Below, in pieces: positions 1,852 to 63,912 of a stretch of DNA of 64,000 bases. The DNA is taken from positions 352,694-416,693 of the forward strand of contig CALUXD010000002.1 of assembly GCA_944324665.1 (NCBI GenBank), written 5' to 3'. The notes beneath the pieces were generated by a model that saw only the letters and a program-made list of their open reading frames with translations, was not told the origin of the DNA and searched no databases. Source of the stretch: Candidatus Proelusimicrobium volucris (GTDB lineage: Bacteria > Elusimicrobiota > Elusimicrobia > Elusimicrobiales > Elusimicrobiaceae). Positions within the stretch are counted from its first letter, which is position 1. Each line of letters opens with the position of its first letter. The translations under genes and the position numbers were made by a program.

Positions 1852-1921
1852 AAGGCAACCTCCGATAGAGTTATCCAACGGTGTTATTAACAGCTTTTGA
1901 CATATAATAGCAATAATTGGA

Positions 1922-2028
1922 TTATATGTCAACATATGTTTTTACTATGTTTTTATATGTCACAAACTGTTTATAACCCTATTTCTCAGACGAGAATTTA
2001 CAAGATTGTTCTCCTTGATTATATGTCA
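1922..2028. repeat. Three direct copies of TTATATGTCA in the AT-rich region upstream of the 1045-1851 gene
   Basis: Exact decamer at 1922-1931, 1953-1962 and 2019-2028 (GATTATATGTCA in copies 1 and 3). A 10-bp palindrome AACATATGTT lies at 1931-1940. Confidence 0.6.
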
Positions 2029-56717: not shown

Positions 56718-57737
56718 TTAATTCGCTTTGCTTTTTAATACCGCAGCGGTATATGGGGGCACAACTCTGTTGTTTTTACCGAAAAGATTTTTATATTTTT
56801 TCTTTTCAAATTCTTTAGGCAAAAGGAGGTCGCCGTCCGATATGTTTAAAATTATATCGTAGTAGTACCCTTTATAGAGGCGTCTTTGCGTTTTTAAATT
56901 ATTCTCCCCCTCAAGCGGAGAGGCCGTTTGCAAGCCCTTTTCGAATACGGGAAGCATTTTGTTTATTTCTTTGGCGACTTTTTTTAGTCTTTTCCAATGT
57001 TCCGGCTTGGACTGGGGCAAAGGAATGCTTTGTGAATTGAAAGTGAAAAAGAATAAACCTTCCGCACCTTCCAAAAGGCCGTCATAAGCCATAAACCGCA
57101 TTTCCTCAACCGTAGGGAATCGGCCTATCCTTTTGTCATCGGGGCGGTATTGTTTAAATTCACGCCAGTCGAAAGATTGCACCACCCCCCATACGGGCTT
57201 CTCGGGCAGGCCGCCCTCTTCTAAAATATTTTTTACATCTTTCACTTGCTCCCCGAAAGAAGTTAAAGGCAGATGTGGTACGGGGTACCAATCCACCATC
57301 AAAATATCCGCCGTATCATAATAGGGCTTTGCGTGGCTTCCCTTGCCTACCACAAAGGCGGTTTTCTTATCGGGGAAAGCCTTGTTTGCGGCATTTTGAA
57401 GGTTTTTTAAATAGGAATTGTCTTTTTTATTTACGTCCGGTTCGTCGTATAAATAGAGGGCTAGTATAGGCCAGGAACGCGCTTCTTCCAGGTATGGCGA
57501 ATTTATTATTTTATCGGGATATACAACGATTTTAACTCCGCGTTTTTGGGCCTCTAAAGCCAAGTCTTTTATTTTTTCGGGGTTTTGCGTGTATGTCTGA
57601 ATACAATTAAATCCCGCCTTTTTGACGGTTTTTATATATTTAGCTTCATTTACCTCGTAAAGGCATAATGGGAAACCTGCGGCTTGGATAACAGCAGCCG
57701 AAACTATAAACGAAATAGTTAAAATAATTTTAAACAA
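56718..57737 (-). CDS. Secreted hypothetical protein, possibly a TIM-barrel glycoside-hydrolase-like enzyme
   Basis: TTG start preceded by AAGGA, overlapping the upstream stop. Signal peptide present. Alternating beta/alpha pattern with acidic residues. The family call is weak. Confidence 0.5.
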   Translation of the reverse strand: MFKIILTISFIVSAAVIQAAGFPLCLYEVNEAKYIKTVKKAGFNCIQTYTQNPEKIKDLALEAQKRGVKIVVYPDKIINSPYLEEARSWPILALYLYDEPDVNKKDNSYLKNLQNAANKAFPDKKTAFVVGKGSHAKPYYDTADILMVDWYPVPHLPLTSFGEQVKDVKNILEEGGLPEKPVWGVVQSFDWREFKQYRPDDKRIGRFPTVEEMRFMAYDGLLEGAEGLFFFTFNSQSIPLPQSKPEHWKRLKKVAKEINKMLPVFEKGLQTASPLEGENNLKTQRRLYKGYYYDIILNISDGDLLLPKEFEKKKYKNLFGKNNRVVPPYTAAVLKSKAN

Positions 57738-59052
57738 TGTTTTTATCCTTAATAAAAGCCCTTTTGGCTGTTTTGAACATTATTTCCAAGTCCAAAAACA
57801 GGGAGCGGTTTTTTATGTACCATACGTCATAGGAAAGGCGTTTGTAAGCGGCGTCGAAAGTGGAATCGGGGATAGACTCTTTATTTTTAAGATCTTCCCT
57901 TACGCAATAATTTGGCGGTGCTTTAAAGTTAAGCTGAGCCCATCCCGTAAGGCCCGGTTTTATTACGCTTCTTATATTGTGGCAACTTAAATGTTTATTC
58001 AGGAAGTAATAATCTTCTGTCCATAACGGTCTTGGGCCGACTATGGAGATATCGCCTTTTAGTATATTGATAAGCTGGGGTATTTCGTCCAGCCTAAACC
58101 GTCTTAAAATCGCGCCGATTTTGGTAATATCTTCGCTGCCTGGCTTCATCGTGCGGAATTTGTAGATGTATATCTTCTTTTCGTTCTTGCCGATGCGTTC
58201 CTGGAAGAAAAAGGGTGGTATCCCGTCGATAAATTTTATCGCGAAATAAGTTAAAATCCCAAGCGGAAGCATAATCGGCATAAGCACCAGGCAGAAAAGA
58301 ACGTCCAAGGCTCTTTTGATAAAAGGATAATATTTTTCTTCCTGCCTTGCGGCGACGCCGCGTATAAGCCACATCGCGTCTTTTAGGCTGCCCTTGCTTG
58401 AGCGCATAAACAGATGTTCGTAAAAATTATAGTCCGTTGTCAGCAAAACGCCCTTATTTAGGAATAAAGTGGATATTACCGCCCAAGTTTTTTTATTCTC
58501 GCTCAGCATTTTGCTGGCCATCACAATAAGGTCTATATTTTCCGGCGGGATTTCTTTGATGTCGTCGGGGTTTTCAAAGCGGCCCAGGACTTCCAAATTG
58601 TCGTAAGAGGCCAAATCTTTCTCTATTTCCTTTAAGGTATTGCTTTTGCCAAGCAGCAATATTCTTTGTTTGACAAAAGTGAAAGAGGCATATAACTTTC
58701 TGGATATGTACATATAGGAAAAATAGATAATAAACACCAACAGCAAGATAAATTTAGGGGTAGCTACGTTGAAAAATGACGTGGTAAAATATATCCCGAA
58801 AGCGGAAGTAATCAAAGATATGGTAAAAGCTATTATTATGTTGCTGTAGTCCAAGCGTCCTTTTTTTATCAGCTGAGTGTCATAAAAAGAAAATATCCAC
58901 AAAATTAGCGAAGTTACGCCAAACACCGGCAAAAGAACTTTTATAGTCGGGTCGAAAACATTGTGGGAAAATTTCCCGTATCTCAAAGTAACAACGAGTG
59001 CCGTTGTCAGCGTGAATGAAATTAAATCCGCAATAAAAAATAGTAATCTCAT
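57730..59052 (-). CDS. Polyprenyl-phosphate glycosyl-1-phosphate transferase (bacterial sugar transferase, WbaP-like)
   Basis: N-terminal TM helices plus the C-terminal catalytic domain with RRFRLDEIPQLINILKGDISIVGPRP. Confidence 0.9.
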   Translation of the reverse strand: MRLLFFIADLISFTLTTALVVTLRYGKFSHNVFDPTIKVLLPVFGVTSLILWIFSFYDTQLIKKGRLDYSNIIIAFTISLITSAFGIYFTTSFFNVATPKFILLLVFIIYFSYMYISRKLYASFTFVKQRILLLGKSNTLKEIEKDLASYDNLEVLGRFENPDDIKEIPPENIDLIVMASKMLSENKKTWAVISTLFLNKGVLLTTDYNFYEHLFMRSSKGSLKDAMWLIRGVAARQEEKYYPFIKRALDVLFCLVLMPIMLPLGILTYFAIKFIDGIPPFFFQERIGKNEKKIYIYKFRTMKPGSEDITKIGAILRRFRLDEIPQLINILKGDISIVGPRPLWTEDYYFLNKHLSCHNIRSVIKPGLTGWAQLNFKAPPNYCVREDLKNKESIPDSTFDAAYKRLSYDVWYIKNRSLFLDLEIMFKTAKRAFIKDKNIV

Positions 59053-59055
59053 AAT

Positions 59056-59976
59056 TTAAGCTTTAAGTATCTCTTTTAAGCCTTCTTTAAGCGAAACTTT
59101 TGCCTTGTAGCCCAATTGCGTTATTTTTGTTATATCGGCGGCGGAATTTTTTACGTCGCCGGCTCTTTTGGGCTTAAAAACGCGCTTCATTTTTTTGCCG
59201 GCGATAGCCTCTATTTCTTTTGCCAGCTTGAGCAGAGTATATGTTTTGCCTGAGGCTACATTGTAAACTTCCCCCGCTTTGCCCTTTTCCATAACCAAAA
59301 TTGTGGCGTCGGCGACGTCGTCTATAAAGACAAAATCTCTGCTTTGTTTGCCGTCCCAATCGATAAAGAAGGTATTGCCGCGTTTAGCTAAATCCATAAA
59401 TTTGGCTATAACGGCGGCGTAGGGGGAGTTGGGGTTCTGCTTCGGCCCAAAAACGTTGAAATAGCGCACGCATACGGTTTCAAGGCCGTATGCCTTAAAA
59501 TAGCATTTAAGCAGTTCTTCCCCTATCAATTTGCTGGCGGCGTAAGGCGATCGGCAGTCAGTTAAAGCTGTTTCTTTGTAAGGAAGTTCTTTACCGTTGC
59601 CGTATACCACTCCCGAAGATGCCAACAAAACCCTTTTTACGCCGTTTAAGCGGGCGGCTTCCAAGACATTATTGGTGCCCTCTATGTTGATTTTATGGGT
59701 TTTTGCCGGTTCCTCCATAGACTGTGCGACCGAAACCAAAGCCGCATGGTGGTAAACGCAATTAACGCCTTTCATAGCTTGCTTTAATTTTTTAAAATCG
59801 GTTATGTCGCCTTTTACTATTTTGATTTTATTTTTAATTTTTGAAAGGTTTTTTACGTCGCCGGAAGAAAAATTATCGTAAACGATGACTTTGTGCCCCT
59901 TTTCTGCCAGTCTTTCGGCCAAACGAGAGCCTATAAAGCCCGCTCCGCCCGTAATAAAGGATATCTTCCCGCTCAT
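59056..59976 (-). CDS. NAD-dependent nucleotide-sugar 4-epimerase (extended SDR)
   Basis: ITGGAGFIGS Rossmann motif and YAASK. Start set to the ATG at 59976, because the track's TTG at 59982 lies 1 nt from the -10 box. Confidence 0.85.
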   Translation of the reverse strand: MSGKISFITGGAGFIGSRLAERLAEKGHKVIVYDNFSSGDVKNLSKIKNKIKIVKGDITDFKKLKQAMKGVNCVYHHAALVSVAQSMEEPAKTHKINIEGTNNVLEAARLNGVKRVLLASSGVVYGNGKELPYKETALTDCRSPYAASKLIGEELLKCYFKAYGLETVCVRYFNVFGPKQNPNSPYAAVIAKFMDLAKRGNTFFIDWDGKQSRDFVFIDDVADATILVMEKGKAGEVYNVASGKTYTLLKLAKEIEAIAGKKMKRVFKPKRAGDVKNSAADITKITQLGYKAKVSLKEGLKEILKA

Positions 59977-59983
59977 ATTCAAA

Positions 59984-60021
59984 ATTATACCATTTTTGCA
60001 ATCTCCCCTAAATGGTATAAT
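59984..60021. promoter_or_regulatory. Mirror-symmetric divergent promoter: two back-to-back extended -10 boxes (AAATGGTATAAT) forming a perfect 12-bp inverted repeat
   Basis: attataccattt (59984-59995) is the exact reverse complement of aaatggtataat (60010-60021). Each TATAAT lies 7 nt from an ATG (59976 on minus, 60029 on plus), with no SD. Confidence 0.55.
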
Positions 60022-60028
60022 ATATTAA

Positions 60029-60850
60029 ATGAAGAACAGTACCCCATTTTCAGTTTTGATGTCGGTTTACGCCAAAGAAAAGGCCTCTTGGCTTAAAGAG
60101 TCGCTTGAAAGCGTTTTTAATCAGACTTTTCCCCCTTCCGAGACGGTTTTGGTGGCCGACGGTCCTTTGACGCCGGAGCTTGAAAGCGTAATATCTTCCT
60201 TTAAAGATCGGCTTAAACTTGTCCGCCTGCCTGAGAACAAGGGGCTGGGCACTGCGCTTAATGAGGGGCTTAAGGCTTGTTCTTATCCTTTGGTAGCGCG
60301 TATGGACAGCGACGATATCGCAGTTGCCAACCGTTTTGAACTGCAAATTGCGGCTTTTGAGAGAGATAAAGATCTTTCCGTATCGGGCGGAGCCATTGAG
60401 GAAATTGATTCCCTTACCAAAAAGAGCATAGCATTCAGGCGTCTTCCGCTTGGCGACGGGGAACTTAAGTCTTTCCTAAAGAAGAGATGTCCGTTTAATC
60501 ACATGACGGTTATGTTTAAAAAGGAAGATGTCTTATCGGCCGGCGGCTACTTGCATTTACACTATATGGAAGATTATTATCTTTGGACGAGAATGGCGGA
60601 AAAGGGTTTTAAATTCGCCAATTTGCCGCAAATCCTTGTTCGCGCCAGGACAGACAAGGCTTTATATGGTCGGCGCGGCGGCTTTGAATATTTTTTGAGC
60701 AACAAAAAGCTGTATTCTTATATGAAAGAGCACGGTATGATAGGCCTTAAAGACTATATCTATATACTTTCCATCCGCTTTTTTGTACAAACCCTTATGC
60801 CCAATTCTTTAAGGAGTTTCTTTTATACTCGGATACTGAGGAAGTTATAG
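60029..60850 (+). CDS. Glycosyltransferase family 2
   Basis: SVLMSVYAKEK...SVFNQT, VLVADGP, ARMDSDDIA. Confidence 0.85.
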   Translation: MKNSTPFSVLMSVYAKEKASWLKESLESVFNQTFPPSETVLVADGPLTPELESVISSFKDRLKLVRLPENKGLGTALNEGLKACSYPLVARMDSDDIAVANRFELQIAAFERDKDLSVSGGAIEEIDSLTKKSIAFRRLPLGDGELKSFLKKRCPFNHMTVMFKKEDVLSAGGYLHLHYMEDYYLWTRMAEKGFKFANLPQILVRARTDKALYGRRGGFEYFLSNKKLYSYMKEHGMIGLKDYIYILSIRFFVQTLMPNSLRSFFYTRILRKL

Positions 60851-60851
60851 T

Positions 60852-61958
60852 ATGAAGAAAGTCCTTTATATAATTTCCACCTTGAGACGAACGGGCCCCA
60901 CAAATATTTTGGCGGGTACGGCACTAAATTTGGACGGAAGGGTTTTTAAGCCTATGGTTCTAACTCTTTCGCCTGAGGAAGACGAGAATAATTCTTGGAA
61001 ACAAGAACTGCAGTCTAAGGGTATAGAAGTCCATTCTTTAAATTTAAGCCGCATAAAGGGGATTTTTTGTGCGGGGCGGGCTTTAAAACGCAAAATTGAG
61101 GAAATTAAACCCGATATAATACATACGCATTGTTTCCGTTCGGCGGTATATTGCGCGTTATTTGTTAAGGGATATAAGCGGGTGTCGGAAATTCATTGCG
61201 ATTATGAGGAAGATTATGCTTTGGCCTACGGCGGAATTAAAGGGGCTATAATGGCTAAAGTGTTTACCTGGGCTTTGTCTAGCGCGGATAAGAGAGTATG
61301 TTGTTCGCAAATGTTGGCGGCTATTTTAAGGCGCAAAAAACCGGACGTCGATTACGCTTATGTAAACAATGGCGTGGATACGGAAAAATTTAAGCCTTAT
61401 GACGGAGATAAGGCCGCTTTGCGGCGCGTTTTGAAATTGCCGCTGGATAAAAGAGTTTTTATATGGGCAGGGGTATTTATAAAGAGAAAAGATTTCCCCA
61501 CCCTTGCAAAAGCGGTAATGGCTTTGAAAGAGGAAAAGGACTTTTTCGTTTTTTGCGGCGATGGGCCTTTGCTTTCGGAAATGCAAACGATGTTGGACGG
61601 GCAGAAAAACATAATGTTTACGGGTTTTTGCCCTGAGATACACAAATATTTGCAGTCTGCGGATTTTTACATATCCACATCGCTTACGGAGAGTTTCCAC
61701 CTTACGGTGTATGAGGCTCTCTCCTGCGGGCTGCCCGTAATTTTAAGCGATATAGAGGCTTACGCCAATTTGCGCGGCAATGAGGCTGTTTCCTTTTTCA
61801 AGACGGGCGATTACAAAGAGTTGGCTAAAGCGATAGGAATTGCCGCGCAAGAATATTCCCCCGCCAAGAGAGAGGCCGCAGTTAAAATGATAAGGGACTC
61901 TTACTCCCTGCAAAAGATGGCGGAAGGTTACGGAGATTTATATCTAAACGGACTATGA
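60852..61958 (+). CDS. Glycosyltransferase family 4 (GT-B, Glycos_transf_1 type)
   Basis: C-terminal E-x7-E region ESFHLTVYEALSCGLPVILSD. GAGGAAG SD. Confidence 0.85.
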   Translation: MKKVLYIISTLRRTGPTNILAGTALNLDGRVFKPMVLTLSPEEDENNSWKQELQSKGIEVHSLNLSRIKGIFCAGRALKRKIEEIKPDIIHTHCFRSAVYCALFVKGYKRVSEIHCDYEEDYALAYGGIKGAIMAKVFTWALSSADKRVCCSQMLAAILRRKKPDVDYAYVNNGVDTEKFKPYDGDKAALRRVLKLPLDKRVFIWAGVFIKRKDFPTLAKAVMALKEEKDFFVFCGDGPLLSEMQTMLDGQKNIMFTGFCPEIHKYLQSADFYISTSLTESFHLTVYEALSCGLPVILSDIEAYANLRGNEAVSFFKTGDYKELAKAIGIAAQEYSPAKREAAVKMIRDSYSLQKMAEGYGDLYLNGL

Positions 61959-63040
61959 TTTATTTTCTTACCATTTATTCGGCGGTGGCCGCGTTAAGTT
62001 TTACCGATTTTATACCCAAATTGCGCAAATTCGGCGCGCTGATGTGCATAATATTGCTTGCGATGCTTGCGGGGTGGCGCAATATGGGCGGGAGCGATTT
62101 CTATGTTTACCAAGATATATATTACGGCTTAACGCTTAACTATATGTCTGCGGAAGCTGGCTATGCCATAATAAATAATCTATTTTCCGGATTGGGGTTT
62201 TCTTATAACGCTTTTCTGTTTGTTTACAGCTTGGCTGCGATAAGCATAATGGTGATTTTTTTGGAAAAACACGTAAAATACCCTAAATTCGCCTTGCTGT
62301 TCTATATGGCGTGTTACTTCTTCTTTTACAATATGGTTCTTAACAGGCAGATGCTTTGTATGTCGATGTCCTTATGGGTAATATACTTTTGGGACAAGAA
62401 CAAACTCTATTCTCTTTTGTGCCTGCTTACCGGGTTCCTATTCCACCAATCCATAATAGTTTTGCTTCCCCTGCTGTTGGTTTTTGAAGTTTTAAAGCAT
62501 ACCAAAGGCATAAAATATTGGCTATTGTTTTTTGTTGCCGCGATAGGTTTTACGGCTTTAATCACTCCGCAAATGCTGCTTGGCATTACGGCTTCTTTAC
62601 CGGGGCTTTCTTCAATGTCCGCGCGCCTTCTTAACTATTTGGAAAACGCCGGTGGAGAGTATGCCCTTAATTTAGTCGAATACGTGAAAATGGCCGCGGC
62701 TTTATGCATTATTCTTCCTTTCGCCAAAAAGATACTTGCCGATAAAGGAAACCACATTTGGGCGTTCTTTTACTTTTTCGGGATAATTTTTCTGTTTTGG
62801 ACAAGAAATATAGAAATATTGTTCCGCGTTTTCGCTTATTTTGATTTAAGTTTATTGGTTTTGATACCTTATGCCGTCAATATTGTGGCAAACAGATTTT
62901 CACCCTCTCAGCGCAAGCCGTTTTTGATATTAACTTATGCCGCCGTGGGGGCATTATCTATTATGGCGATACTTTACCGCGCGGCGAATTTTGGGGACGG
63001 CTCCTTTTTGTCCTATCAATTTTATTTTATGGATATTTGA
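61955..63040 (+). CDS. EpsG-family polytopic membrane protein (putative Wzy-type glycan polymerase)
   Basis: ~11 TM helices with aromatic-rich loops, located between glycosyltransferase genes. ATGA overlap with the upstream gene. Confidence 0.75.
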   Translation: MIYFLTIYSAVAALSFTDFIPKLRKFGALMCIILLAMLAGWRNMGGSDFYVYQDIYYGLTLNYMSAEAGYAIINNLFSGLGFSYNAFLFVYSLAAISIMVIFLEKHVKYPKFALLFYMACYFFFYNMVLNRQMLCMSMSLWVIYFWDKNKLYSLLCLLTGFLFHQSIIVLLPLLLVFEVLKHTKGIKYWLLFFVAAIGFTALITPQMLLGITASLPGLSSMSARLLNYLENAGGEYALNLVEYVKMAAALCIILPFAKKILADKGNHIWAFFYFFGIIFLFWTRNIEILFRVFAYFDLSLLVLIPYAVNIVANRFSPSQRKPFLILTYAAVGALSIMAILYRAANFGDGSFLSYQFYFMDI

Positions 63041-63042
63041 TT

Positions 63043-63912
63043 ATGATAACGATATTCACCCCCGCTTATAATCGTGCGCACACTTTGGGCAAATTGTACG
63101 AAAGCCTTAAAAGGCAGAGCAGCCATAATTTTGAGTGGCTTGTAATAGACGACGGCAGCAAGGACGGCACGCAAGAACTTTTTAAAACTTGGCTTGAGCA
63201 ACGCAATCCCTTCAAAATAACATATATCAAGACGGAAAACGGCGGCAAGCATAAGGCGATAAATTTAGGCGTTTCAAAAGCGGGCGGGGAAGCCTTTTTT
63301 ATAGTAGACAGCGACGATTTCCTTCCACCAGACTCCGTTGAAAAGATAGAGAAGGCTTTTTCCTCCGTAGTTGATAATGAAAGATTTGCCGGCATTTGCG
63401 GTTTAAAGGCAGGGGCTTTTGACAAACAGCCTTTGGGCAATAGCGCGGCTTCGGCTGGTTTGGATTGCTCAATGGCGGATATAAGGTATAAATATCATAT
63501 CCGCGGTGATATGGCGGAAGTGTTTAAGACCTCGGTATTAAGACAATATCCGTTTCCCGTATTTGAGGGCGAAAAATTTATGAACGAGGCCGTCGTCTGG
63601 GGCGAAATAGCCAAAAAACATCTTATGCGCTATACAGGCGATATTTTGTATTACTGCGAGTATATGCCAGACGGATTAACCCGTTCGATACGCCGCCAAT
63701 ATCGCCGCAGCCCCAAAGGAACAAAACTTTATTACGGCAGGCTGATAAAGGATAAGTCCATCCCGCTGAAAGAACGGGCAAAGGCGGGCGTATTGTATTG
63801 GCGGTATTTGTGTTTTAATGGGGAAGGATATAAAAATATGCCGTCATTTTTGGTAATATTTTGGCCCGCGGGCGTGTTTTTTTATTTTATGGATTGCTTT
63901 TTAGGGGCGTAA
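63043..63912 (+). CDS. Glycosyltransferase family 2
   Basis: ITIFTPAYNRAHTL, WLVIDDGSKDGT, IVDSDDFL. I prefer the ATG at 63043 over the TTG at 63037. Confidence 0.8.
   Translation: MITIFTPAYNRAHTLGKLYESLKRQSSHNFEWLVIDDGSKDGTQELFKTWLEQRNPFKITYIKTENGGKHKAINLGVSKAGGEAFFIVDSDDFLPPDSVEKIEKAFSSVVDNERFAGICGLKAGAFDKQPLGNSAASAGLDCSMADIRYKYHIRGDMAEVFKTSVLRQYPFPVFEGEKFMNEAVVWGEIAKKHLMRYTGDILYYCEYMPDGLTRSIRRQYRRSPKGTKLYYGRLIKDKSIPLKERAKAGVLYWRYLCFNGEGYKNMPSFLVIFWPAGVFFYFMDCFLGA

What the first reader, a model, noticed from the sequence alone, without database searches (positions are those of the whole stretch)
59974..60031. Perfectly mirror-symmetric divergent promoter with two leaderless-type start codons
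The 52 bp between the ATGs of the epimerase (minus, 59976) and the GT2 gene (plus, 60029) contain a perfect 12-bp inverted repeat with a 14-bp spacer. Read outward on each strand, it gives AAATGGTATAAT, an extended -10 (TGnTATAAT). Each is followed by exactly 7 nt and then ATG, with no Shine-Dalgarno sequence. Transcription normally starts about 7 nt after the -10, so both mRNAs would begin at or next to their start codon. This would be a compact bidirectional leaderless control module at the head of a glycan locus. The palindrome could also be a binding site for a dimeric regulator.
Basis: partly seen in the sequence, partly recalled or inferred. Interest (0 to 1): 0.6.

Follow-up and report, generated by a model that had tools for sequence, protein, structure and literature searches.

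The report
Back-to-back leaderless promoters, glycan locus
Two strong promoters sit back to back between two sugar-chain operons of a gut Elusimicrobium, each so close to its gene's ATG that the mRNA probably has no leader; about a fifth of this genome's operons are built the same way, so this is a tidy example of a known design.

Summary
CAT lies at 59974-59976, ATTATACCATTT at 59984-59995, then 14 nt, AAATGGTATAAT at 60010-60021, then 7 nt and ATG at 60029. Neither side has a Shine-Dalgarno sequence. The leaderless reading is well supported, but only indirectly. In this 1.5-Mb Elusimicrobium genome, -10 hexamers pile up exactly 6 nt, and less often 7 nt, upstream of start codons. About 20% of operon-head genes show this, against about 2% of internal genes, and none of them has an SD. 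The 12-mer matches the consensus of that promoter class (AAwwTGnTAtAAT). Related genomes of the same genus show the same signal. In five orthologous epimerase/GT2 spacers, TG and TATAAT are invariant on both sides. The "n" of TGn, the central 14 nt and the discriminators all drift. That pattern fits a promoter, not an operator. The palindrome is therefore best read as two consensus extended -10 promoters facing outward, not a site for a dimeric regulator. The verdict is a real feature and a new member of a known kind (bacterial leaderless genes with the -10 next to the ORF, in back-to-back divergent promoters). Interest is modest. The genus-wide leaderless class is the more useful result.

The parts
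59056..59976 (-). SDR sugar-nucleotide epimerase/dehydratase gene (306 aa). It is the first gene of the minus-strand operon.
   Evidence: Pfam PF01370 E=8e-63, profile position 2 at residue 7. NCBIfam GalE/TviC-like, below the equivalog cut-offs.
59977..59983 (-). 7-nt discriminator TTTGAAT between the -10 hexamer and the ATG. It has no SD, and a T directly precedes the ATG.
   Evidence: Sequence. The promoter class has T at -1 in 66-88% of members.
59984..59995 (-). Left arm, reading AAATGGTATAAT on the minus strand. It holds the A-tract, TGG (59992-59990) and the -10 hexamer TATAAT (59989-59984).
   Evidence: It matches the class consensus AAwwTGnTAtAAT. TG and TATAAT are invariant in 5 orthologues.
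59993..59998 (+). Weak candidate -35 (TTTTTG, 2 of 6 matches) for the plus promoter, 17 nt from its -10. It abuts the TGG of the minus promoter.
   Evidence: Read from the sequence. The class logo shows only a weak T-rich -35. This part is inferred.
59996..60009 (.). Central 14 nt (TTGCAATCTCCCCT) between the arms. The sequence is not conserved among orthologues, but its length is.
   Evidence: Alignment A1 and genus loci.
60007..60012 (-). Weak candidate -35 (TTTAGG on the minus strand, 3 of 6 matches) for the minus promoter, 17 nt from its -10.
   Evidence: Read from the sequence. This part is inferred.
60010..60021 (+). Right arm AAATGGTATAAT, holding the A-tract, TGG (60013-60015) and the -10 hexamer TATAAT (60016-60021).
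60022..60028 (+). 7-nt discriminator ATATTAA. It has no SD, and its last three bases are an in-frame TAA stop.
   Evidence: The translation reads '...IIY*MKNSTPF'.
60029..60850 (+). Family-2 glycosyltransferase gene (273 aa). It is the first gene of the plus-strand operon.
   Evidence: Pfam PF00535 E=6e-22 from residue 8. EpsE-like in NCBIfam, below the cut-off.
60852..63912 (+). The rest of the plus operon: GT4 (60852-61958), an EpsG-family polymerase-like membrane protein (61955-63040) and a second GT2 (63037-63912). The genes are tightly packed or overlapping.
   Evidence: GT4 has GAGGA 9 nt upstream of its ATG, and the others overlap by 4 nt.
56718..59052 (-). The rest of the minus operon: a polyprenyl glycosylphosphotransferase (priming transferase, 57730-59052) and a 339-aa protein with no family match (56718-57737).
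   Evidence: Pfam PF02397. TIGR03025 E=1e-67, below the cut-off.

Best explanation
The 52-bp spacer holds two separate sigma-70-type extended -10 promoters (TGGTATAAT, each preceded by an A-tract) placed back to back with their -10 hexamers 26 bp apart. Each fires outward. Each -10 ends 7 nt before an ATG, so RNA polymerase should start at the A of the ATG or 1-2 nt before it. Both operon-head mRNAs (epimerase plus priming transferase on the minus strand; GT2, GT4, EpsG-like protein and GT2 on the plus strand) would then be leaderless. They would be translated by direct recognition of a 5'-terminal AUG rather than by SD pairing. Downstream genes would use SD sites or translational coupling. 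The 12-bp 'palindrome' is simply the same near-consensus promoter written twice on opposite strands.

Shown here: the sequence layout, the genome-wide and genus-wide positional class, the conservation pattern and the start-codon assignment.

Inferred: the actual 5' ends, the activity of both promoters, and any interplay between them. That interplay could be steric competition, because the polymerase footprints overlap with start sites about 53 bp apart, or coupling through supercoiling.
For: (1) Layout and missing SD.

(2) Genome-wide class. Among 432 genes with unambiguous starts, TA...T, TATAAT and TG.TA...T spike at spacer 6 (38, 12 and 12, against backgrounds of about 14, 1.5 and 1). For TG.TA.AAT followed by an ATG that opens an ORF of at least 80 aa, the counts are 27 at spacer 6, 9 at spacer 7 (9 of 9 such ATGs), and 0-5 at every other spacer from 0 to 20. 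Among unambiguous operon heads, 36 of 181 (20%) carry a hexamer matching TATAAT at 5 or 6 positions at spacer 6 or 7. Among internal genes the figure is 4 of 251. None of the 36 has an SD-like motif.

(3) The class logo is A-19, A-18, W, W, T-15 (78%), G-14 (47%), n, TAtAAT. T directly precedes the ATG in 88% (spacer 6) and 66% (spacer 7), the pyrimidine-purine signature of a start site at the A. The 12-mer of the finding fits every position.

(4) Genus-wide signal. TGNTATAAT-N6-ATG gives 7-22 hits per genome in 15 congeners, against 0-4 for the reversed control. With N7 the counts are 2-9 against 0-3.

(5) Orthologous spacers come from G010/L002, G015, G029/L004, G026 and L082. TG and TATAAT are kept on both sides. 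The spacers are 5-8 nt on the epimerase side and 7 nt on the GT2 side. The n of TGn (G, C or A), the discriminators and the central 14 nt all change.

(6) More distant GT2 homologues keep a TGnTATAAT upstream but with a 36-37-nt leader and an SD (G005, L007). This shows the element behaves as a promoter whose distance to the ATG can change.

(7) The start codons are fixed by an in-frame stop, Pfam alignment and N-terminal conservation.

(8) The first 50 nt of both putative mRNAs fold no better than shuffles (z = +1.0 and +1.2).

(9) The design is documented in the literature as GeneMarkS-2 'group C' and 'TA-led' genes, with the -10 lying 6-8 nt from the start (PMC6028130, PMC3160421, PMC12340547).
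Against: The dominant spacer of the class is 6 nt, not 7. In this genome only 3 exact TGNTATAAT-N7-ATG sites exist, and two of them are this pair. The true 5' end may therefore lie 1 nt upstream of the ATG.

Perfect 12 of 12 identity of the two promoters is rarer than two independent draws from the average class profile would give (P about 7e-4). It recurs in G015. Some extra constraint on symmetry cannot be excluded.

My gene calls come from a home-made ORF and codon-score caller, not a validated gene finder.
Confidence: 0.8

Rival explanations
1. The palindrome is, or is also, an operator. A dimeric transcription factor binds the two 12-bp half-sites and co-regulates both glycan operons, with the -10 elements embedded in its site.
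For: The perfect 12-bp inverted repeat is unique in the genome. It recurs perfectly in G015 despite a different centre. The 26-bp distance between hexamers is kept in 5 of 6 orthologues although indels occur in the discriminators. Identity over 12 nt exceeds the expectation from the class profile.
Against: Every conserved position belongs to the promoter consensus, and the one position a polymerase does not read (n of TGn) is the one that varies (G/G, C/G, C/A, A/A). The central 14 nt is not conserved. The half-site centres are 26 bp apart, about 2.5 helical turns, so they face opposite sides of the helix, which is unusual for a dimer (general knowledge). The motif occurs nowhere else in the genome. 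None of the seven flanking genes scanned matches a regulator family. The 26-bp distance is also explained by packing: each weak -35 abuts the other promoter's TGn. Unrelated loci in the genus show the same 25-26-bp spacing.
Confidence: 0.1
2. The mRNAs have leaders. Transcription starts further upstream, inside the neighbouring divergent gene, and the AT-rich spacer acts as an unstructured, SD-independent (S1-type) ribosome landing site. The TATAAT matches are incidental AT-rich sequence.
For: SD-less leadered initiation exists in many bacteria (PMC5397173, listed). The generic promoter scan finds sigma-70-like sites inside both flanking genes, but no more than in shuffles.
Against: An AU-rich enhancer would not need TG at -15/-14, would not sit at a fixed distance of 6-7 nt, and would not be restricted to operon heads. 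TG and TATAAT are invariant in orthologues while neighbouring A/T bases change. The promoter scan shows no excess over shuffles (5 sites against 3.5 +/- 1.8).
Confidence: 0.07
3. Only one of the two promoters works at a time or at all. The two polymerases exclude each other, so the pair acts as a competitive switch that balances the priming operon against the elongation and polymerisation operon.
For: The start sites would be about 53 bp apart, so each polymerase footprint (roughly -55 to +20, general knowledge) covers the other promoter. Competition at symmetric bidirectional promoters has been demonstrated in E. coli when transcription is activated (PMC12825309).
Against: Nothing was tested here. 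The same E. coli study found basal transcription too low for competition. Extended -10 promoters need little upstream contact. This is a refinement of the main explanation rather than a true alternative.
Confidence: 0.25

Closest known systems
Bacterial leaderless genes with the -10 (Pribnow) box 6-8 nt upstream of the start codon: GeneMarkS-2 'group C' genomes, 'TA-led' genes, and the Deinococcus-Thermus '-10 region adjacent to ORF' pattern (PMC6028130, PMC3160421, PMC12340547)
   Same: A TANNNT/TATAAT hexamer lies 6-7 nt from an ATG. There is no SD. The pattern is restricted to first genes of operons, and internal genes use SD. About 20% of operons are affected, near the 25-50% reported for group C.
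   Different: The lineage is a gut Elusimicrobium of 45% GC, not among the phyla those papers name as rich in leaderless genes (Actinobacteria, Deinococcus-Thermus). The promoters are of the extended -10 (TGn) type with full TATAAT, not the degenerate TAnnnT of high-GC genomes.
Extended -10 promoters (TGnTATAAT; the '-16 region' TRTG of Gram-positive promoters)
   Same: TG lies one base upstream of a consensus -10, and the -35 is poor (2-3 of 6 matches). The class logo shows T-15 at 78% and G-14 at 47%.
   Different: Comparison with the Gram-positive TRTG motif rests on my own knowledge. Here -17 is A or T in equal parts, and an A-tract at -19/-18 is added.
Symmetric bidirectional promoters of E. 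coli and Salmonella (Warman et al.; PMC12825309, PMC10268837)
   Same: Both show divergent transcription from a pseudo-symmetrical AT-rich sequence. Polymerase can engage in either orientation, and one binding event probably excludes the other.
   Different: In those promoters the two -10 elements overlap or interlock, and the start sites are 18 bp apart (or 10 or 23 bp). Here two separate -10 hexamers lie 26 bp apart, and the start sites would be about 53 bp apart. A true example of the overlapping type exists elsewhere in this genome (C1 538180/538202).
Classical back-to-back divergent promoters, such as lambda PRM/PR, where the PRM transcript of cI is leaderless (own knowledge)
   Same: Two outward promoters share one short control region, and a leaderless mRNA comes from one of them.
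   Different: In lambda the region is organised around repressor operators and only one transcript is leaderless. Here no operator is evident, and both transcripts would be leaderless.

Membership tests
Bacterial leaderless (TA-led / group C) gene | -10-like hexamer (TANNNT) ending 6-8 nt upstream of the start codon | tested here: met
   TATAAT ends 7 nt before both ATGs.
Bacterial leaderless (TA-led / group C) gene | No Shine-Dalgarno sequence upstream of the start | tested here: met
   No GGAG, GAGG, AGGA, GGGA or AAGG in -16 to -4 on either side.
Bacterial leaderless (TA-led / group C) gene | First gene of its operon, with an AUG start codon | tested here: met
   The genes diverge from a shared spacer and both start with ATG. 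Downstream genes are tightly packed.
Bacterial leaderless (TA-led / group C) gene | The genome shows a positional excess of -10 motifs at that distance, so the class exists in the organism | tested here: met
   The spike lies at spacer 6, with spacer 7 second. 20% of operon heads show it, against 1.6% of internal genes. The same holds in congeners.
Bacterial leaderless (TA-led / group C) gene | Mapped transcript 5' end at, or within a few nt of, the A of AUG | not testable with these tools
No transcription-start data for Elusimicrobia were found.
Extended -10 promoter | TG at -15/-14, one base upstream of the -10 hexamer, with a dispensable or weak -35 | tested here: met
   TGGTATAAT is present on both strands. 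The best -35 candidates are TTTTTG (2 of 6) and TTTAGG (3 of 6) at a 17-nt spacer. TG is invariant in orthologues.
Symmetric bidirectional promoter (Warman type) | Overlapping or interlocked -10 elements on opposite strands, with divergent start sites about 18 bp apart (or 10 or 23 bp) | tested here: not met
   The hexamers are 26 bp apart and the predicted start sites about 53 bp apart. The definition comes from PMC12825309.
Palindromic operator of a dimeric regulator | Half-site bases conserved beyond what the promoter itself requires | tested here: not met
   Only promoter-consensus positions are conserved. The n of TGn and the centre vary.
Palindromic operator of a dimeric regulator | The same motif recurs at other regulated sites, or a regulator gene lies adjacent | tested here: not met
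   The 12-mer occurs only at this site. No regulator family appears among the seven neighbouring genes scanned.
Palindromic operator of a dimeric regulator | Protein binding to the site | not testable with these tools
   This needs a gel shift or footprint.

The most novel reading that the evidence does not exclude
The exact dyad has a function beyond two independent promoters. The evidence for a dyad is the 12 of 12 identity, seen also in G015, and the fixed 26-bp distance between hexamers, seen in 5 of 6 orthologues and at unrelated loci in the genus. The function could be a competitive or supercoiling-coupled toggle that sets the ratio of the priming operon to the polymerisation operon of a surface glycan. 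It could also be a shared site for an unidentified factor. More broadly, gut Elusimicrobia would be a lineage not previously noted in which about a fifth of operons are leaderless and compact double-leaderless divergent promoters are a standard building block.
Probability: 0.15. Interest if true: 0.5.

Novelty: new member of a known kind. Interest (0 to 1): 0.3.

Why it matters
For this locus the result fixes the start codons. It also predicts that both glycan operons are driven by strong, -35-independent promoters with no 5' UTR. That leaves no room for riboswitch, sRNA or SD-based translational control of the first genes.

For the organism the survey shows that a gut Elusimicrobium genus uses leaderless initiation for roughly one operon in five. 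This matters for gene-start annotation of these mostly uncultured genomes, because SD-based gene finders will misplace such starts. It also adds a mid-GC lineage to the known distribution of bacterial leaderless translation. None of this changes current concepts.

Tried and rejected

2. Generic sigma-70 and terminator scan: it missed both promoters because it requires a -35 match, and it showed no excess over shuffles, so it was not informative.

3. Metagenome scan for more orthologues: only one useful close relative (L082, 63% identity). The rest were GT2 homologues at 50% identity or less, from other phyla and in different contexts.

4. Supplements of the GeneMarkS-2 and Zheng 2011 papers, searched for an Elusimicrobium classification: nothing is held.

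5. Downstream in-frame ATG as the true start: rejected. For GT2, Met11 lies inside the first beta-strand covered by the Pfam profile. For the epimerase, no ATG precedes the GxxGxxG motif other than the one at 59976.

6. TTG at 59982 as the epimerase start: rejected. It lies 1 nt after the -10 hexamer and is absent in orthologues.

7. The conserved CTCC in the centre (GGAG on the minus strand) as an SD: rejected. It lies 26 nt from the ATG, upstream of the -10, and is absent in G015 and G026.

8. RNA hairpin formed by the inverted repeat: rejected. Each transcript would start downstream of its own arm, so neither RNA contains both arms.
Full report
**What is in the sequence.** The finding is accurate to the base. 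The minus-strand start codon is CAT at 59974-59976. It is followed by 7 nt, then ATTATACCATTT at 59984-59995. A 14-nt centre spans 59996-60009. AAATGGTATAAT lies at 60010-60021, followed by 7 nt and ATG at 60029-60031. The repeat finder extends the dyad to 23 nt at 78%, taking in both start codons. Read outward, each arm is AAATGG-TATAAT, a textbook extended -10 (TGnTATAAT). Neither 7-nt discriminator (ATATTAA, TTTGAAT) nor the 20 nt upstream of either ATG contains an SD-like tetramer.

**The genes.** The minus gene is an SDR sugar-nucleotide epimerase/dehydratase (PF01370, E=8e-63). It is followed by a polyprenyl glycosylphosphotransferase (PF02397; TIGR03025-like) and a 339-aa protein with no family match. 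The plus gene is a GT2 glycosyltransferase (PF00535). It is followed by a GT4, an EpsG-family membrane protein and another GT2, all tightly packed or overlapping. The spacer therefore heads two divergent operons of a Wzy-type surface-glycan locus.

**Are the start codons right?** Yes.
- An in-frame TAA (60026-60028) directly precedes the GT2 ATG.
- The Pfam GT2 profile begins at residue 8, and the N-terminus (M-x3-5-FSVLMSVY) is conserved in orthologues.
- The epimerase profile begins at residue 7, just ahead of the GxxGxxG motif.
- The TTG at 59982 listed by the ORF tool lies 1 nt after the -10 hexamer and is not conserved.

**The organism.** The window lies in a 1.496-Mb, 45% GC genome of 4 contigs. 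The closest GT2 loci belong to Elusimicrobia and Elusimicrobium genomes. The 16S rRNA ends in ...GGATCACCTCCTTT, so the anti-SD is intact, and most genes do carry an SD 5-10 nt upstream.

I called 1307 genes with a simple ORF and codon-score script.
- Among 432 genes whose start is unambiguous, TA...T, TATAAT and TG.TA...T each show a sharp spike with exactly 6 nt between the motif and the start codon. The counts are 38, 12 and 12, against backgrounds of about 14, 1.5 and 1.
- Starting from the motif instead, there are 376 TG.TA.AAT sites in the genome. An ATG opening an ORF of at least 80 aa follows at spacer 6 in 27 cases, at spacer 7 in 9 (all 9 ATGs at that spacing), at spacers 5, 8 and 9 in 4-5 each, and at the other spacers from 0 to 20 in 0-3 each.
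- For the looser TA.AAT the counts are 81 at spacer 6 and 57 at spacer 7, over a baseline of about 20. That is roughly 100 excess genes.
- In the unbiased subset, 36 of 181 operon-head genes (20%) have a hexamer matching TATAAT at 5 or 6 positions at spacer 6 or 7. Among internal genes the figure is 4 of 251 (1.6%). None of the 36 has an SD-like motif.
- The class logo (81 ATG-start genes at spacer 6 and 41 at spacer 7) reads A-19 (62%), A-18 (62%), W, W, T-15 (78%), G-14 (47%), n, T-A-t-A-A-T. The -35 is only faintly T-rich. T directly precedes the ATG in 88% (spacer 6) and 66% (spacer 7). That pyrimidine-purine step is what is expected if transcription starts at the A of the ATG.

AAATGGTATAAT fits the logo at all 12 positions. 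This genome therefore has a genuine leaderless class of the kind described as 'TA-led' or 'group C' (PMC3160421; PMC6028130, which gives 6-8 nt between the Pribnow box and the start; PMC12340547). The finding is a member of it, with the second most common spacer.

**The same trait in relatives.** TGNTATAAT-N6-ATG occurs 7-22 times per genome in 15 same-genus genomes and 13 times in this one, against 0-4 for the reversed-pattern control. It is also enriched in other genera of the order. With N7 the counts are 2-9 against 0-3.

**Comparative footprint of this spacer.** Five orthologous epimerase/GT2 spacers were recovered. They are G010 (identical to L002 over the spacer; 88% protein identity), G015 (86%), G029 (identical to L004 over the spacer; 72%), G026 (62%) and the metagenome contig L082 (63%).
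- On the GT2 side all five have TGnTATAAT followed by 7 nt and ATG.
- On the epimerase side all five have TGnTATAAT followed by 5, 6, 6, 8 or 8 nt and ATG.
- TG and TATAAT are invariant.
- The n is G/G in this window and G015, C/G in G010, C/A in G029 and G026, and A/A in L082.
- The discriminators and the central 14 nt differ freely (TTGCAATCTCCCCT, TTGGGCTCTCCATT, TTAGATTAGCCGCT and others).

This is the pattern expected of two promoters, because polymerase does not read the n. It is not the pattern expected of a protein-specific palindrome. In more distant homologues a TGnTATAAT is still present upstream of the GT2 gene, but it is followed by a 36-37-nt leader with an SD (G005, L007). In others it is again 6 nt from the ATG (G041, G043, E. 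posterum L003). So the element behaves as a promoter whose distance to the ORF evolves.

**Is the perfect dyad more than two promoters?** Partly open.
- Two random members of the class would be identical over 12 nt with P of about 7e-4.
- The perfect 12-bp repeat recurs in G015 with a different centre.
- The distance between hexamers is 26 bp in five of the six spacers compared (this window and four orthologues), even though the epimerase-side discriminator has gained and lost bases.

A simple structural reason exists. At 26 bp, the -35 position of each promoter (17-nt spacer) abuts the TGn of the other. The layout is [-10][nCA][TTTTTG]-8 nt-[CCTAAA][TGn][-10], so 26 bp is the tightest packing of two complete promoters.

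Other evidence points the same way. A genus-wide search for ATTATAnCA-N(0-30)-TGnTATAAT finds 0-4 such back-to-back pairs per genome in 24 of 34 genomes, and the reversed control finds almost none. The pairs fall into several unrelated orthologous families, and total lengths of 37-38 nt (hexamers 25-26 bp apart) are the most frequent. One of those families carries a consensus TTGACA next to the opposite extended -10.

In this genome ten divergent pairs have leaderless-type -10 elements on both sides, this pair included. For seven of them the ATG-to-ATG gap is 21-61 nt, and for three of those it is 51-52 nt. The architecture is therefore a recurring building block, not a special device of the glycan locus.

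**Mechanism proposed.** Sigma-70-type holoenzyme recognises each extended -10 with little help from a -35. It would start at the A of the ATG, the 8th base after the hexamer, or one base earlier. On the plus side positions 6-8 after the hexamer are A, A, A. On the minus side they are A, T, A. The resulting mRNAs begin with AUG, or carry at most 1-2 extra bases. They would be translated by the leaderless route, in which an initiator-tRNA-loaded ribosome recognises the 5'-terminal AUG (general knowledge). The first 50 nt of both mRNAs are weakly structured (z = +1.0 and +1.2 against shuffles). Downstream cistrons use an SD (GAGGA before the GT4 gene) or overlapping stop and start codons.

The predicted start sites are only about 53 bp apart, so the two polymerase footprints overlap. 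Mutual exclusion is plausible, as shown for symmetric bidirectional promoters in E. coli under activation (PMC12825309). Positive coupling through the negative supercoils generated by divergent transcription is also plausible. Neither was tested.

**Comparison with known systems.** The feature meets every sequence-level criterion of a bacterial leaderless gene and of an extended -10 promoter. It does not meet the definition of the Warman-type bidirectional promoter, which has interlocked -10 elements and start sites 18, 10 or 23 bp apart. It is a classical back-to-back divergent pair. No paper in the library links leaderless expression to Elusimicrobia specifically, and no transcription-start mapping for the phylum was found.

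**Limits.** The gene calls are home-made. The spacer-7 subclass is small in this genome when the strict 9-mer is required.

**Verdict.** The regulator-palindrome idea is not supported (about 0.1). This is a new member of a known kind. Interest is about 0.3, mostly for the lineage-wide leaderless class and its use in start-codon annotation.

Noticed in passing
genome contig C1 538180/538202 (outside the window): The ATGs of a 519-aa membrane protein (minus strand) and of GatB (plus strand, N-terminus MKHEFEPVIGLEIHVQL) are only 21 nt apart: CATATTTGATATTATATTAAATATATG. Their -10 hexamers overlap by 4 bp (TATAAT on the minus strand, TATATT on the plus). This is a symmetric bidirectional promoter of the Warman type, and both mRNAs would be leaderless.
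   Followed up: partly
relatives, e.g. G014:C7:14960-15000, G001:C7:6147-6187, G011:C6:57326-57366: A 23-nt back-to-back pair, ATTATACCATTTAATGCTATAAT, is conserved in 11 genomes of the genus. Where the flanks were listed (G001, G006, G011, G014), N6-ATG follows on both sides. This is a second, even more compact double-leaderless divergent promoter. The genes it serves were not identified.
   Followed up: no
window 1897-1932: A perfect 12-bp inverted repeat, TTGACATATAAT-12 nt-ATTATATGTCAA, has arms that fuse a consensus -35 to a consensus -10. It is one of only four perfect inverted repeats in the genome that contain a -10 hexamer.
   Followed up: no
whole genome: There are 120 distinct perfect 12-bp inverted repeats with loops of 30 nt or less, against 2-4 in composition-preserving shuffles. 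They are presumably mostly terminators, but they were not classified.
   Followed up: no
window 60029-60850 and loci L008-L081: Outside Elusimicrobia, the nearest homologues of the GT2 protein (43-51% identity) are in gut Clostridia, Bacteroidales and Negativicutes. This is typical of glycan-locus genes exchanged among gut bacteria.
   Followed up: no
window 56718-57737 (-) and 61955-63040 (+): The 339-aa protein in the minus operon has no Pfam or NCBIfam match. The EpsG-family protein (PF14897) has no NCBIfam match. They may be the chain-length, flippase or polymerase components of the locus.
   Followed up: no
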